Shown: piece by piece, positions 21,001-30,000 of the stretch
Layout of the letters: every line of letters starts with the position of its first letter
Position numbering within the stretch: position 1 is the stretch's first letter
DNA from: a candidate division WOR-3 bacterium
GTDB taxonomy: Bacteria; Hydrothermota; UBA3072; B12-G15
Direction: 5' to 3'
Assembly (NCBI GenBank): GCA_965649055.1
Contig: CBFGJG010000002.1
Coordinates: forward strand, 51,920 to 89,987
DNA length: 38,068 nucleotides
Made by a program: the position numbers

Positions 21001-24000
21001 ACATTTGCCTCTCCAACCTTTGCCCTATGAACCTTTGTATTATATTTTTTTGCTATAAAATCAACCATTGAAGTTGTTGAATAATTAACAACAGATTCTC
21101 CTTTTACCTTTGAAAACCAGTGTTCTAAAGCTAAAGTTATAGTGTATTCTTCACCAATAGCAATCCCTTTATCATCCACAATACTTAACCTGTCGCCATC
21201 TGCATCTGTTGCAAATCCCAAATCTGCACCAGTGTCCTTCACAAGGCTTTCAAGTGCCTTAAGATTTTCCGGAACAGGTTCAGGGTCTCTCCTGAAATCA
21301 CCTGTGTCTTCACAGAATAGTTCTATTACATCGCATCCAAGCCTTCTCAGAAAATATGGATATGCATAATAACTTGCACCATTCACACAGTCTATTACAA
21401 TTTTAAATTTTCTCTTTCTAATGATCTCAAAATTTATTTTTTTTAGTCTTAATATCTTATCTATATGTCTTTCAATCCCTTTCTCATCATTAACAACATC
21501 CTTTATCTCACTCCATTTAACCCTTTCAAAATCACTTTCTATAATCTGGTCTAATTGTTTACTCTCTTCTTCACTCAAAAATTCCCCATTCTTATTTATT
21601 ATTTTTAAAGCATTCCATTCAGATGGGTTATGGCTCGCTGTTATAGCAATACCACCTTCTGCCTTGAGTTCCTTAACATTAAGGAGTATAGTTGGGGTTG
21701 GAACTATTCCAAGGTCAACAACATCACATCCAACTGATAACAAACCTGCAATAACTGCATTTTTGAGCATTTCACCACTTCTCCTTGAATCCCTTCCAAC
21801 AACTATCTTTTTTCTCCTTGTTAAAACACCATAAGCACCTGCGTATCTTGTTACATATTCAGGTGTGAAACCTTTGCCTACTATTCCTCTAATTCCTGAC
21901 ACTGATTTTATTATAATTTTGCACCTCCATTTTCCTTATTCTTTCTTCTATCATTTTATCAAGTTCTGATATTCCATCACCACGTAAAGCAGAGATAAAA
22001 ACTGAATTTTCATATTTATTTTTAAGATAAGATACGGTCATAAAATCAACAACAAGATCAATCTTATTAAAGACAAATATGAAGTCTTTATCTTCGATAC
22101 CAAGTAGTTTGAGTATGTTCAGAGATTCTTCAATCTGGACACTGTATCTTTCATTGGAGACATCTATCACTATAAGCCTTAAATCAACAAAAGTAGCCTC
22201 CATAAGTGTTGATTTAAATGAAGCAATTAACTGATGTGGTATGTTCTGTATAAAACCAACAGTATCTGTAAGAAGGAATTTTTTTCCGTTTGATGTGTAT
22301 CCTATCCTTGTTAAAGGGTCAAGTGTAGCAAAAAGCTTATTATCAACATAGGTATTTGCATTTGTAAGCCTGTTCATAAGAGTTGATTTACCTGCGTTTG
22401 TATATCCAAGTAGTGCAATTGTAAAAATATCCTTCCTTCTTTTTCTCTGTATCTCAAGTGTCTTTTCTATTTTTTTTAATTTATCCTCAAGATATTTTAT
22501 CCTTTCCCTTATTTTTCTCCTGTCAATCTCAAGTTTCTGTTCTCCGGGTCCCCTTGTTCCAATTCCACCACCTGTTCTTGAAAATTCATTCCCTTTTCCT
22601 ATCAATCTTGGAATTTCAAATCTTAATTTTGCAAGTTCAACTTCTATCTTGGAAACACTTGTTTTTGCATGTTTTGCAAAAATATCAAGAATTATATCCC
22701 TTCTATCAATTGTCTTTTTCCCAGTAATTTTCTCTATATTTCTTATCTGTGCAGGAGATAATGGTTCATCAAATAGTATGGTATCAAAACCATCCCATTT
22801 TGATATCTCTTCTATCTTACCTTTACCTATATGATATGCAGGGTCAGGACTTTTTTTAACCTGTATTATCATATCAATGACTTCACCACCATATGTTTTT
22901 ACTAATTCCCTTAGTTCATTAAGTGAATCAAGTTTCTTCTGTTTATCTATAGATTTATTTATCAAACCTACTATGAGAAATTTTTCTCTTTCTTTAGAAG
23001 TTGAATTTAACATTAATTCCACCACCTATTTCGTATCTTCTATCTGTTTTAAGTATATTGTTAAAATGTTTTTTATAGAATATATTCATTCCACCTACAA
23101 TACTTGAAGTGAATTCGTACTTTCCGTCTATCTTAAAATTTATATCATAATAATCACTATTTACCTGTTTGGACTGGATAAAAAGATTTTTCGTAATATT
23201 CCTTCTACCTGTTATGGAATTCTCAAAAGATAAATTAAGATTACCCTTGAGTTTAAAGGGTGTTTTTCTAAAAGGTAGGGATATTGGTTTATTTTGAGTA
23301 AATTTATATTCGGTATTTAAATTTATGGACCAGTTTAAATCTTCATTTATCAGATCACTATATTGATTTTTTTCATTTCTCAGATTCCTATTTATATTCC
23401 CATTTATGTTTAAATTAAGTGTATTTTTTAAACCAATTCTAAGCTGCGGAGTTATATTTTCTGTTATTGTAATGAGAATATAATTTGGATCATCAATCCT
23501 TCTTTGAGATTCATTCCTCTTTGAGTATCTAAAAGTATAATTTATAGAATTCAAGAAATTCTTAAAGATTATGAATTTTTGTGGAATAACACCATCAAGG
23601 GAAAAAGATGGAAAATCGTATGAGAATTTTTTCACAAAATCATTCTGATAGTATGGAATTCTATAAGAAAAACCCGCAGATGTACTCACATTAATTCCAA
23701 TTAATTTGAAACGTGTAGATAACTCACCATTCAAATTTTCATCACCTCCATCCCTTATATCATTAACAAAAATTTTATCATTCTCAACATATGTCCTTAA
23801 ACCATATCTGAATCTATAATCTGGTCTGCTATTAAGATAATTATATATAGATGATCTGTCAATTGAGAATTTCATACTGAGATTATCAAGGTTTGTTACA
23901 ATTTTGTTAAATAAAGGTATCTTTGAAAGGAAATTAATTCTCAGATTACTACCTATAGAGAATGCCCTCTTTATTGCGGCAGACCTCACATCATTTGTAT

Positions 24001-27000: not shown

Positions 27001-30000
27001 TCTCATCAATCTTTGTCGGTTCCTGACCGGGTCTAACCTTAAAAATATCAACATTTATCTTTTGAACATCTGTTCCTCCATAGAATTGGTATATGTTTCT
27101 CATCATCAGATACCATGTTGTATCATTCGGACTCGGGTCAAATTCTCTTATGAGCAGGAGTTCCGTTGTATCAATTGCACTTGCAGGGAAGCGACCTATT
27201 GTATCTATCTTTCCTGTCAATAAATTTTTTTTTATAAAACATATACCTATCATTCCTGTTGGATAGTTCTTCATCTCAAGAAAAGGAATTATTTTACCGG
27301 ATGGTTGGATAAAATAATTCAATATATAATCTTCAGTTGGAATTTGTTCTTTGAATCTTGATTCACTTTTTATAGTTGAATTTAGTTTAAAATACTTCGC
27401 TGGTATACTATTCATCACATCTGAATTCTGATAAAAAACCTTTATCTTTACAAGTGAATCATTCTCTCCGAGTGGAATAAAATAGAATCTATCCTTTACA
27501 TACTGTTCATCGTATATTACTATTGAATCAGTGGATGCTGATTTTTCAACGGATTTTGATACTTCTTCGTTTGTTTCTCTTTTTAAAGAAAAATCAAATT
27601 GTGTATTTGCAAAAGTGCCTCTTGAATTTATACCGAAATCACCTTTTTCCTTCATATCACCAAGTGAGAGATACTGCAATATATCGTCTTCATCTTTACT
27701 TTCATACCATATTTTTATCTTATTATCTGCTTCATCTGTTCTTTTTGAATCGTGGTCAACAGTAATATTTATCTTATTTCCCACATTACCAGTTATATTT
27801 ATCTTCAGTTGCTGGTCCGGTTTTATCTGTGAATAACTTCTATTTTCACCCAAAATACCTTCATTCACCACCTGTGAATACTCAAAACTTACAAATTGAT
27901 ACCCTTTCACAACAACCTTACCACCTTCTCCTACAAAATATTTAAATGTATTTGGTAAAGCAAAAGAAAAAGAGATTTCAGGTATTATACCTTCTCCTGA
28001 ACTTATCTCCTTCCTTATACCTTCCGTGACTGCCTTCTTAAATTCGTCTGCAAGTAATTCCTTAAAATATAAGTTAAAATCAGAGCCTTCTAAAACCTTT
28101 ACTGTGGATATATACATATTTTCATAATATTCGTTTATGGCTATGAATTCTCCAACAAGTTCAACTGTTCTTGTAATATCTTTCTTATAAAAATAATTCT
28201 GAATATCCTCTGTAAAAGATAATAAAAAAATCAGCACATTTTCCTCGCCATCTTTATTGCCATCTTTGTGCTTTCTGGTGATGCTATATTTTTACAGACT
28301 ATATCAAATCCTGTTCCATGTGCAGGAGATGTTCGGACAACTGGAAGGCCTATTGTAGTATTAATACCTTTAAAAAATGACAGGTATTTAAATGGTATCA
28401 TTCCCTGGTCATGATACATTGAAACAATAACATCATAATCCTTTTTCATAAAAAAAGTATCAGGTGGAACAAGACCAATAACTTTAATACCCTCTTTTTT
28501 CAACTCATTGATAGCAGGAATAATTTCTTTTATTTCTTCCTTACCCAATACACCTGATTCACCTGCATGTGGGTTCAGGCTTAAAAATAAAATATTTGGA
28601 TTGGTTTTCAATCTTTCTTTAAAAAACCTGTCTAATATTCTTACCTTCATTTTTATGAAATCTTTTCTTATGTATTTATGAACATCCTTTAAAGGTATAT
28701 GGGTTGTCAAAAGAAAAACATTTATTTTTCCCATCATAAGCATACCATAATCTTTAACATTAAATTTACTCGCAATTATCTCTGTCTGTCCTTTAAATCT
28801 ATACCCTGCAAGATTGATACCATTTTTAGATAAAGGTAATGTTACTATTGCTTTCGCCTGATTTTTTTTTAAGATTTCAATCCCTTCCATTAGAGATCTA
28901 AACGCTATTTCTCCATTCAGTTTTGAATCTTTACCGACCACAAAGTTACCTTTAATATCAAAAAAATTTATCTTACAAGGTAAATTTAATGAGAGTTTTT
29001 CAGAATAAAATTTCAGAGCCTTGTATGAACCAACAACGATATCATCTTTTTTTAGAAGATTTTGTGATTTAAGAAAAACCTCGTAACTTATTCCTCCGGG
29101 GTCTCCAAGTGTAAATACAATCATAATTCCTCTATATAATTATATATTTCATCCTTACTAATGTTTTTTGAAACAGGAATTTCCTTCACCTTTATCCTGC
29201 GACCCTGAATCTCTATAATATCACCGACTTTAACCTCTCTTGATGGCTTTGAAGGCACACCATTAACATAAACAGAACCTACTTTTATCATGAGATTACT
29301 TTTTGTTCTTCTTTTTACCAGACAGGTGGTTTTTAAAAAAAGATCAAGCCTCATTCAAAAATTTTATAATAGACAACATTTTTCATTTCTTCTACTATAC
29401 GCTCATATTCCTTTTCTAACTTTTTATTGAAATAATAGAGATTCAATTTATCTTCTACCTCTTCAAATTTTGGAATTCCTCCTTCTTTCTTTGACAGGAC
29501 CTTCACAATGCTGATAACATTACCTTCTAAAACCGGCTCCGATATATCTCCCACATTCAATTTTCCAAGCAAATCCTTAAGTTCATCAGGCAGGATTGCA
29601 AAGGATAATTCAGGCATTGTATCTGTTTTAATAGTTTCACCTTTAATCCATCTTGTTCTCAGTTCATTTGCTTCTTTCATTCCTTCAGATATCTCTTTTT
29701 CTTTTAAGTTAAATTTTAAGAATATATGAGAAAGACCAATCTTTCCTGAAACCCTGCTATTTACTTTTAAGATATGTGCCCCTTCCGGGGAGAAGAATAT
29801 ACCTGTCTTACCTACCGGTATTGTATCCACACCAGAAAAATAAGGAGGAAGGTTGATTAAATAAAATTCACCAAGCCTTCCTCCGGAATATTTCGTGCCA
29901 ACATCCTCTGAGTATTCAATTACAAGTTCTTCAAAGCTTTTTGTCTTCAATTTTTCTATTATTTCTTCGCATTTTTTTATAAGTCTTTCTTTCTCTCTCT

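What a model noticed while it worked through the whole genome (the two positions that open the first line are those of the whole stretch)
22994..28237. Type IX secretion translocon and 71 cargo proteins without the GldKLMN motor, a phylum-wide state of WOR-3
The unannotated 1747-aa g00162 is a compact SprA/Sov translocon; PorV/PorQ-family barrels (g00836, g00158, g00228, g01873), a PorZ-like protein (g01901), a PorP-like barrel (g01875), C25 peptidases and 71 proteins with a type A C-terminal signal (8% of the genome) are present, but GldK, L, M and N are not found. The same holds across WOR-3 and in sister lineages, so a T9SS works, and probably arose, without the Bacteroidota rotary motor.
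Evidence so far: g00162: TIGR04189 209.3 bits over cut-off 200; PorV_fam over cut-off for g00836, weaker for three more; PorP-like E 0.0096; PorZ E 5e-21, under cut-off. 41 table CTDs + own HMM = 71 cargos. Own genome: GldL, GldM, GldK, GldN no match at E<=0.001. Phylum: SprA in 71 of 71 genomes (65 over cut-off, ORFs about 1750-2000 aa) vs GldM 0 of 71, GldN 0 of 41, GldL 0 of 41 over cut-off (4 weak coiled-coil hits). Positive control: GldM, GldN, GldL over cut-off in 3 of 3 Bacteroidia genomes. Five bins of other lineages (titles Fidelibacterota, Zixibacteria, Latescibacterota, Fermentibacteraceae, one labelled Bacteroidota): SprA 5 of 5, GldM 0 of 5. Passages read: T9SS found only in Bacteroidetes (PMC47 [...]
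(Added by a program. Inside this text positions count along the whole contig: contig position 51,920 is position 1 of the stretch shown here. "Call 12" and the like, gene names such as g00115 and contig names such as C1 are that model's own, and its searches are not shown. The text may have been shortened before it was handed on; [...] marks where a part breaks off. The agent that wrote the report below was given it as the finding of a first reader that could run no searches.)

Follow-up and report, generated by a model that had tools for sequence, protein, structure and literature searches.

The report
Type IX secretion lacking its motor

Summary
Confirmed. 22994-28237 (-) is an intact 1747-aa SprA/Sov translocon (profile, predicted fold). 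The genome also has PorU-, PorV-, PorZ- and Skp-like genes and about 70 type A cargo genes (8.0% of bases). In the phylum: SprA 81 of 81 genomes, PorU 41 of 41, cargo tails 41 of 41; GldM 0 of 81, GldN 0 of 41, GldL 0 of 41 over cut-off, and 54 of 81 lack any protein with the GldK fold. GldM was also missing in 49 of 49 SprA-bearing genomes of related phyla. The SprA tree follows phyla and places Bacteroidia among motor-less lineages, so the motor looks added later; this runs against a 2025 proposal that the system arose within the gliding machine. New here: a single-copy SprE/PorW-like lipoprotein (46 of 46 genomes), short in this phylum and fused to TonB C-terminal domains in related lineages, and a Ton motor operon that often carries the best PorV gene. 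Ton-powered release is my leading guess (about 40%). Secretion is not shown. Motor-less part lists are already in print for Ignavibacteria and Bacteroidetes incertae sedis, and this scan noted one in Goldbacteria. Verdict: new variant of a known system.

The parts
22994..28237 (-). SprA/Sov translocon, 1747 aa; short hydrophobic leader, N-terminal segment aligning with the SkpA-bound N terminus of F. johnsoniae SprA, giant beta-barrel
17937..18752 (-). PorV/PorQ-family barrel, 271 aa, same strand, four genes downstream of sprA; under the family cut-offs
   Evidence: PorQ E 4e-16, PorV_fam E 2e-10
2070..5933 (-). Type A cargo, 1287 aa, DNRLRE domain and C-terminal sorting domain
   Evidence: TIGR04183 30.8 bits over cut-off 23 at residues 1202-1285
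28231..29124 (-). pdxA; its stop abuts the sprA start, which fixes the sprA start codon. Housekeeping, not part of the system
29351..32794 (-). Three SurA/PrsA-type peptidyl-prolyl isomerases upstream of pdxA-sprA; this order is seen only in the two other same-order genomes examined, link to secretion not shown
21889..23025 (-). hflX, overlapping the sprA stop. Housekeeping

Best explanation
This phylum has a type IX secretion pathway made of the extended translocon and the sorting module but no GldKLMN energy chain, and this is the older form of the system. Steps: (1) cargo crosses the inner membrane by Sec and folds (inferred from N-terminal leaders); (2) its type A tail binds a PorV-family carrier docked in SprA, which is braced by Skp and an SprE-like lipoprotein (genes shown; binding inferred from F. 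johnsoniae, where loading needs no energy); (3) the carrier-cargo pair leaves SprA, and PorU with PorZ cuts the tail and anchors or frees the cargo (genes and a GHG...SC dyad shown for one paralogue; activity inferred). Step 3 is the energy-requiring one in Bacteroidia. Among candidate drivers I rank the proton-driven ExbB-ExbD-ExbD-TonB motor first (about 40% given a working system), acting through SprE, the carrier or a TonB-dependent receptor. GldLM and the GldK/N track were added in the Bacteroidia line. Confidence below is for the motor-less working pathway and its ancestry; the Ton step is inference.
For: Intact SprA in 81 of 81 genomes, PorU in 41 of 41, 23 over cut-off, 14 to 107+ cargo tails in each of 41, SprE-like in 46 of 46 (family profile colinear with SprE 8gl8_I, E 5.5e-45). 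Motor absent by six routes: curated profiles; unfiltered own HMMs from 46-62 Bacteroidia sequences each, best E 0.013-0.15 and nothing on 68% of a 3-contig genome; no FGE fold in 54 of 81, and the 30 FGE loci read match only the core, at most 145 bits against 561 or more for the profile's own members, with no L/M/N neighbour; no 2-TM plus 1-TM gene pair (recall 54-60 of 59-62 on true genes); no GldM- or GldL-like Atlas cluster above 0.83 outside the named families; GldM 0 of 49 in KSB1/Calditrichota/Marinisomatota-type genomes, where SprA keeps about 29% of its Bacteroidia score. Tree: Bacteroidia joins Ignavibacteria-like SprA (support 100) among motor-less phyla; a clade with this phylum is rejected, AU p 1e-6. 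Ton links: ExbB family in 22 of 22 genomes, and in G006 and G014 the only copy is exbB-exbD-exbD-tonB; 13 of 22 such loci run on into a TonB-dependent receptor, a protein with a PorU/PorZ-type tail and the strongest PorV gene; TonB_C domains end 5 of 18 long SprE-like proteins of related lineages and 17 of 106 family representatives, at the place where P. gingivalis PorW carries its PorN-binding domain (PMC8754138).
Against: No secretion, proteome or expression data. At this phylum's distance SprA keeps only about 7-16% of its Bacteroidia score, so a GldM would be expected at roughly 25-55 bits and GldL or GldN lower, near the detection limit. All genomes are assemblies from metagenomes. The SprE-like proteins of this phylum (426-490 aa, one 627) carry no TonB_C; the copy in this genome did not reach the SprE model at E 1e-9 and was not among the 30 matches. 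In this genome the Ton operon (C5) and the receptor-PorV cluster (C14) lie apart, and a TonB-dependent receptor is reason enough for a Ton motor. The tree holds one Bacteroidia sequence and is unrooted; the species tree it is compared with is recalled. One of nine carrier-like barrels has a Cys four residues from its end.
Confidence: 0.65

Rival explanations
1. No dedicated motor: the carrier-cargo pair leaves a looser SprA by diffusion, and PorU cleavage with surface anchoring makes export one-way (a ratchet).
For: SprA here lacks nine segments of 20-96 residues present in the Bacteroidia protein; SprE is cut to its TPR core with no C-terminal adaptor; PorU is kept in 41 of 41; no envelope motor gene is a regular neighbour of sprA in 21 loci of this phylum or 77 of others.
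Against: In F. johnsoniae cargo is trapped on SprA when the motor is removed (PMC10994853, passages). Repeated SprE-TonB_C fusions in related lineages suggest some coupling is selected.
Confidence: 0.25
2. A Gld-type motor or another unrecognised motor is present but has diverged beyond sequence search.
For: GldM and GldN are only 27% identical at the median within Bacteroidia; PorP is barely seen here, E 0.0096; the SprE copy escaped the curated model, so parts can be missed.
Against: The FGE fold of GldK is easy to find and is missing from 54 of 81 genomes, near-closed ones included; no gene pair with GldL/GldM topology; GldM also missing in 49 closer genomes; Atlas searches blank (clusters of 50 or more members only).
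Confidence: 0.15
3. The motor was ancestral (the system arose within a gliding machine, as proposed in PMC12635249) and was lost separately in every lineage outside Bacteroidia, or SprA spread sideways without it.
For: The SprA tree is unrooted; losses of whole modules occur (Bacteroides thetaiotaomicron lacks SprA and GldM in the controls).
Against: It needs several independent losses that each spare pore, SprE, sortase and cargo; SprA clades match phyla; transfer from Bacteroidia into this phylum is rejected.
Confidence: 0.12
4. The pore is a relic or serves another purpose, and the tailed proteins stay in the periplasm.
For: No direct evidence of export in this phylum.
Against: 8% of the genome encodes tailed proteins; all parts are intact across the phylum; a tailed Rhodothermus xylanase is described as cell-attached (PMC6539836, passage) and tails appear cleaved in Fibrobacter (PMC6851124, passage).
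Confidence: 0.05

Closest known systems
Type IX secretion system of Flavobacterium johnsoniae and Porphyromonas gingivalis: Extended Translocon SprA-PorV-PPI-SkpA-SprE (PDB 8gl8; PMC10994853) with PorU/PorZ/PorQ
   Same: SprA fold and N-terminal SkpA-binding segment, PorV-family carriers, Skp, SprE-like lipoprotein, PorU with adjacent PorV-like gene, PorZ-like protein, type A tails.
   Different: No GldL/GldM motor, no GldK/GldJ/GldN hub, no PorT-family hit over cut-off in 4 of 5 genomes, no full PorE; SprA about 650-700 aa shorter; SprE about half length.
Reduced T9SS sets reported in Melioribacter/Ignavibacterium (PMC11705866) and Bacteroidetes incertae sedis (PMC7323717)
   Same: SprA/Sov and PorV (plus PorU, PorQ, PorZ, Omp17, PorF in the second) listed without PorK, L, M or N.
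   Different: Reported as lists for a few genomes, read as possible detection limits, without mechanism or ancestry; both lists lack SprE/PorW, which I find in motor-less lineages; this phylum is not covered in the passages read.
Ton system ExbB-ExbD-TonB with TonB-dependent receptors
   Same: Proton-driven inner-membrane motor acting on outer-membrane proteins; present as exbB-exbD-exbD-tonB; TonB_C domains.
   Different: Not known to power protein export in the papers searched; here linked to PorV-family genes by operon and to SprE by fusion, in part of the lineages only.

Membership tests
T9SS (Bacteroidota) | SprA/Sov giant-barrel translocon | tested here: met
   29-30 long strands in the modelled part, about 7 more by eye in residues 104-220 (not modelled), compatible with 36
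T9SS (Bacteroidota) | PorV-family carrier | tested here: met
   C14:1172-2143 157 bits over PorV_fam cut-off 90; PorV proper only E 4e-8. Which paralogue docks on SprA is not known
T9SS (Bacteroidota) | Many cargos with type A C-terminal domain | tested here: met
T9SS (Bacteroidota) | PorU sortase and PorZ | tested here: met
   C35:13272-16901 402.6 bits (cut-off 420), paralogue C3 242.6 bits next to a PorV-like gene; over cut-off in 23 of 41 genomes. PorZ-like is weak, E 5e-21
T9SS (Bacteroidota) | SprE/PorW and SkpA | tested here: inconclusive
   C23:17963-19246 belongs to a single-copy lipoprotein family whose profile aligns end to end with SprE; this copy alone is below the curated model. 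One Skp. Binding not tested
T9SS (Bacteroidota) | GldL/GldM rotary motor | tested here: not met
T9SS (Bacteroidota) | GldK/GldN (PorK/N) hub | tested here: not met
   the control genomes did not ring for GldN, the profile was checked only on one true protein
T9SS (Bacteroidota) | PorT, PorE | tested here: not met
   PF13568 over cut-off in 1 of 5 genomes, not this one; two OmpA-domain proteins match PorE only in the C-terminal part
T9SS (Bacteroidota) | PorG, Plug, PorD, PPI subunit | not tested
   no profile searched
T9SS (Bacteroidota) | Export and tail cleavage in cells; dependence on proton motive force | not testable with these tools
   uncultured; no RNA holder listed

The most novel reading that the evidence does not exclude
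The ancestral type IX system of the FCB superphylum is powered by the Ton motor: ExbB-ExbD-TonB force reaches the translocon through SprE (fused to TonB_C domains in several lineages) or through a receptor-PorV unit, making it a protein-export machine run by an import motor; Bacteroidia later swapped this for GldLM and the gliding track.
Probability: 0.3. Interest if true: 0.9.

Novelty: new variant of a known kind. Interest (0 to 1): 0.68.

Why it matters
Current models hold that release from the T9SS pore needs the GldLM motor and hub (PMC10994853) and that the system arose inside the gliding machine (PMC12635249). Whole phyla with pore, SprE, sortase and large cargo sets but no such motor reverse that order and raise a sharp question: what drives release? 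Cultured motor-less relatives (Ignavibacterium, Melioribacter, Caldithrix, Rhodothermus; culture status partly recalled) make it testable now, and SprE-TonB_C fusions name a concrete candidate. It also means standard T9SS detectors that require Gld genes will miss the main export route of several abundant uncultured phyla.

Tried and rejected
Conserved partner next to sprA: none across phyla. Neighbours are housekeeping genes, a small helix-hairpin-helix protein (12 of 21 loci here), an M28 peptidase (41 of 77 loci elsewhere), and in some lineages PorU/PorV or a TonB-dependent receptor. Weak GldL hits: rejected, they cover profile positions 76-242 only, on 280-1039-aa frames; 8 loci read, one a chemoreceptor. 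FGE proteins as GldK: rejected. Eight-gene cargo-PorV-TPR-ExbBDD-TonB cluster as the general motor: rejected, seen in some genomes but its 282-aa marker has no homologue in this genome and G006/G014 have a single ExbB. Tol-Pal as the general motor: no TolQ-type copy in G006 or G014. 907-aa and 634-aa TPR proteins as SprE: only generic TPR matches. Binding of the SprE-like protein to SprA and Skp, and its fold, remain untested. More Bacteroidia SprA for the tree: only one obtained. McBride and Zhu 2013 was not held; it and Veith 2013/2017 were not read and may already note missing motor genes (recalled). Supplements of PMC7323717 and PMC11705866 were not opened and hold the genome lists.
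Full report
OBSERVATION. The window holds an uninterrupted 1747-aa ORF at 22994-28237 on the minus strand, wedged between pdxA and hflX. 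It scores 209.3 bits against TIGR04189, cut-off 200. Alone it finds no solved structure and no Pfam family. A profile of 46 homologues, named by their sources as WOR-3, Cloacimonetes, Gemmatimonadota, Marinimicrobia and Bacteroidota proteins, matches F. johnsoniae SprA from end to end, E 1e-278. The model of residues 558-1747 (pLDDT 85.9, pTM 0.58) has the four SprA cryo-EM chains as top hits, E 3e-60 to 2e-45, far ahead of the next. It shows 29-30 long strands; about seven more are visible by eye in residues 104-220, which were not modelled, so a 36-strand barrel is likely (inference). The N-terminal hairpin-helix that SkpA holds in F. johnsoniae aligns with the family profile. Compactness comes from nine missing segments of 20-96 residues against the Parabacteroides protein. 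The window also holds a PorV/PorQ-family barrel (17937-18752) and a tailed cargo (2070-5933).

REST OF THE PATHWAY IN THIS GENOME (2.08 Mb, 93.8% complete). TIGR04183 gives 69 matches; 68 ORFs end in the tail and three fragments were missed by my ORF caller; they cover 8.0% of bases and 3.5% of ORFs. There are eight PorV-family matches, one over cut-off. The best PorU is C35:13272-16901 (402.6 bits, cut-off 420); a paralogue on C3 (242.6 bits, GHG and SC motifs) lies directly before a PorV-like gene. A PorZ-like protein (E 5e-21), one Skp and a weak PorP-like barrel without cysteine are present. PorT was over cut-off in 1 of 5 genomes, not this one; PorE matches cover only the C-terminal part. 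PorG, Plug and PorD were not searched.

PHYLUM. SprA 81 of 81 genomes, 74 over cut-off; cargo tails 41 of 41, 14 to 107 or more each; PorU 41 of 41, 23 over cut-off. These are samples of related genomes, not independent draws.

IS THE MOTOR ABSENT OR UNSEEN? GldM: 0 of 81; the same search found a true GldM at E 7.5e-109. GldN: 0 of 41, without a ringing control. GldL: none over cut-off in 41; weak hits in 10 genomes skip the membrane helices and lie in longer coiled-coil proteins. From 80 metagenome loci found with a recalled GldM motif I built profiles of 62 GldM, 59 GldL, 46 GldK and 53 GldN; one locus was checked against the curated models. Unfiltered searches of 3319 ORFs gave best E-values of 0.15, 0.013, 0.11 and 0.047 on short stretches, and nothing better than 0.015 on 68% of the 3-contig genome G006. 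The strongest test is GldK: its FGE fold is found across life, yet 54 of 81 genomes have no such protein, and the 30 of 39 FGE matches whose loci I read hit only the core and have no L, M or N neighbour. A topology scan that recovers 54-57 of 59 true GldL and 60 of 62 GldM found no credible pair. ESM Atlas searches that skipped the named families gave nothing above 0.76 for GldM and 0.83 for GldL. GldM was also missing from 49 of 49 SprA-bearing genomes titled KSB1, Calditrichota, Marinimicrobia, Zixibacteria or unnamed, of unknown completeness, with the control ringing (49 of the 77 loci). Calibration: SprA scores about 3160 bits in Bacteroidia, 1037 in an Ignavibacteria-like protein, 928 in a KSB1-like one and 209 here. 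A GldM of 330-357 bits scaled alike would give about 100 bits in KSB1 but only 25-55 here, so absence is firm for the closer phyla and somewhat less so for this one.

ANCESTRY. A tree of 58 SprA sequences (1139 columns) and an IQ-TREE run on 26 of them give clades that match phylum labels. The one Bacteroidia sequence joins the Ignavibacteria-like group (support 100), next to KSB1, Calditrichota, Marinisomatota and Zixibacteria/AABM5-type sequences; this phylum lies with Cloacimonadota and Gemmatimonadota. Forcing Bacteroidia with this phylum is rejected (AU p 1.2e-6). This resembles the FCB species tree as I recall it. With the motor reported missing in Melioribacter/Ignavibacterium (PMC11705866, passage) and in Bacteroidetes incertae sedis (PMC7323717; that these are Rhodothermia is recalled), one gain in Bacteroidia is simpler than many losses. 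Limits: unrooted, one Bacteroidia tip.

A MISSED PART: SprE. Comparing exported proteins shared with G006 showed a 427-aa TPR lipoprotein, C23:17963-19246. Its family spans WOR-3, Cloacimonetes, Marinimicrobia and Ignavibacteriales. Ignavibacteria-type members score 177-179 bits on the PorW/SprE model, colinear from the N terminus, cut-off 250; the family profile aligns with SprE chain 8gl8_I over 1-556 against 1-758, E 5.5e-45, below only engineered and eukaryotic TPR proteins. Its N terminus was found in 46 of 46 SprA-bearing genomes, mostly as one strong copy, two of them weak at E 1e-7. Against: the copy here did not reach the model at E 1e-9 and is not among the matches. In this phylum the protein stops after the TPRs (426-490 aa, one 627). 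Of 18 longer copies read to the end, 5 finish with a Pfam TonB_C domain over cut-off; 3 more look TonB-like by eye but have no Pfam hit. Of 150 representatives returned, 106 carry the family motif and 17 of these have one to four TonB_C hits with my profile; Pfam confirmed 2 of 4 checked at E 1e-9. Two others end in an OmpA domain. [quoted passage not shown] I read the SprE C terminus as a swappable adaptor: hub, TonB_C, peptidoglycan anchor or nothing (inference).

WHAT COULD DRIVE RELEASE? The ExbB/TolQ/MotA family occurs in 22 of 22 genomes; G006 and G014 have a single copy, exbB-exbD-exbD-tonB, so Tol-Pal and the eight-gene PorV-TPR-Ton cluster are not general. Of 18 such loci that I picked and read, 13 continue into a TonB-dependent receptor, a 685-1139-aa protein of a family with a PorU/PorZ-type tail, and a strong PorV-family gene; four more seen, this genome's among them, do not, giving 13 of 22. 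Here the receptor-PorV cluster is on C14 and holds the best PorV. The plain reading is an uptake unit whose surface partner is delivered by the T9SS; the bolder one is that Ton force extracts carriers. With the SprE fusions I put Ton-driven release at about 40%, a passive ratchet closed by PorU at about 30%, an unseen motor at about 20%. None is shown.

LITERATURE. Ten searches. No held paper has both 'type IX secretion' and 'WOR-3'; the listings showed none on SprE-TonB fusions or on a motor-less ancestral system. Seen as passages only: PMC12635249 (abstract, outline, discussion passage proposing origin within the gliding machine), PMC10994853 (release is the energy-requiring step), PMC11285876 (T9SS may occur in other FCB phyla), PMC11705866, PMC11205867, PMC3362086, PMC8542988, PMC6539836, PMC6851124, PMC8754138, PMC5445135 (term search, no hits); one section part of PMC7323717. 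Subscription papers are mostly not held, and supplements were not opened. This scan earlier noted a motor-less set in Goldbacteria and Ton-PorV clusters on other DNA; those notes led me to examine Ton loci and are not counted as support.

VERDICT. Real, and a T9SS in pore, carrier, sortase and cargo, but it fails the motor and hub criteria: a motor-less variant. The bare parts list has precedent; its phylum-wide reach, the reversed evolutionary order, the SprE family and its TonB_C fusions appear new. Interest 0.68.

Noticed in passing
window 22994-28237, 29351-30451 and many exported proteins genome-wide: Very short leaders without a charged N-region (Met plus 4-9 hydrophobic residues), often right after a ribosome-binding site or an overlapping stop; 149 of 1945 ORFs and 13 of 68 cargos fit a strict pattern.
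   Followed up: partly
L127:5977-7569 and L128 (IMG/VR records): A full-length gldM sits alone among phage-like genes in two viral contigs, without gldK, L or N; real capture or assembly chimera not examined.
   Followed up: no
P0274, P0338, P0412: SprE-like lipoproteins with three or four TonB_C domains.
   Followed up: partly
P0204, P0208: SprE-like lipoproteins with a C-terminal OmpA peptidoglycan-binding domain, possibly doing the anchoring job of PorE.
   Followed up: partly
L049, L045, L053, L055, L100: In KSB1-type genomes sprA is followed by M28 peptidase, prmA, DUF4390, then a TonB-dependent receptor and/or a large protein I take to be PorU-like (not scanned), and in L049 a PorV-family gene.
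   Followed up: no
G000 C69:2154-5293 (L121): A 797-aa helix-hairpin-helix protein with a barrel-like end follows the PorP-like gene and is conserved in G006; a small helix-hairpin-helix gene follows sprA in 12 of 21 loci of this phylum.
   Followed up: no
G000 C42:7896-9749, C49:10305-11936, C20:23956-25632: Three 540-620-aa proteins with an unannotated, barrel-like N-terminal half and a C-terminal OmpA domain; OmpA frames of similar length in 4 of 4 other genomes.
   Followed up: no
L316, L319, L321, L328 (variants L317, L329, L366): Cargo-PorV-TPR-ExbB-ExbD-ExbD-TonB cluster whose last 280-aa gene has a TonB-box-like N-terminal stretch by eye.
   Followed up: partly
L250, L276: FGE-fold matches with in-frame TGA codons inside; selenocysteine, recoding or broken genes not examined.
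   Followed up: no
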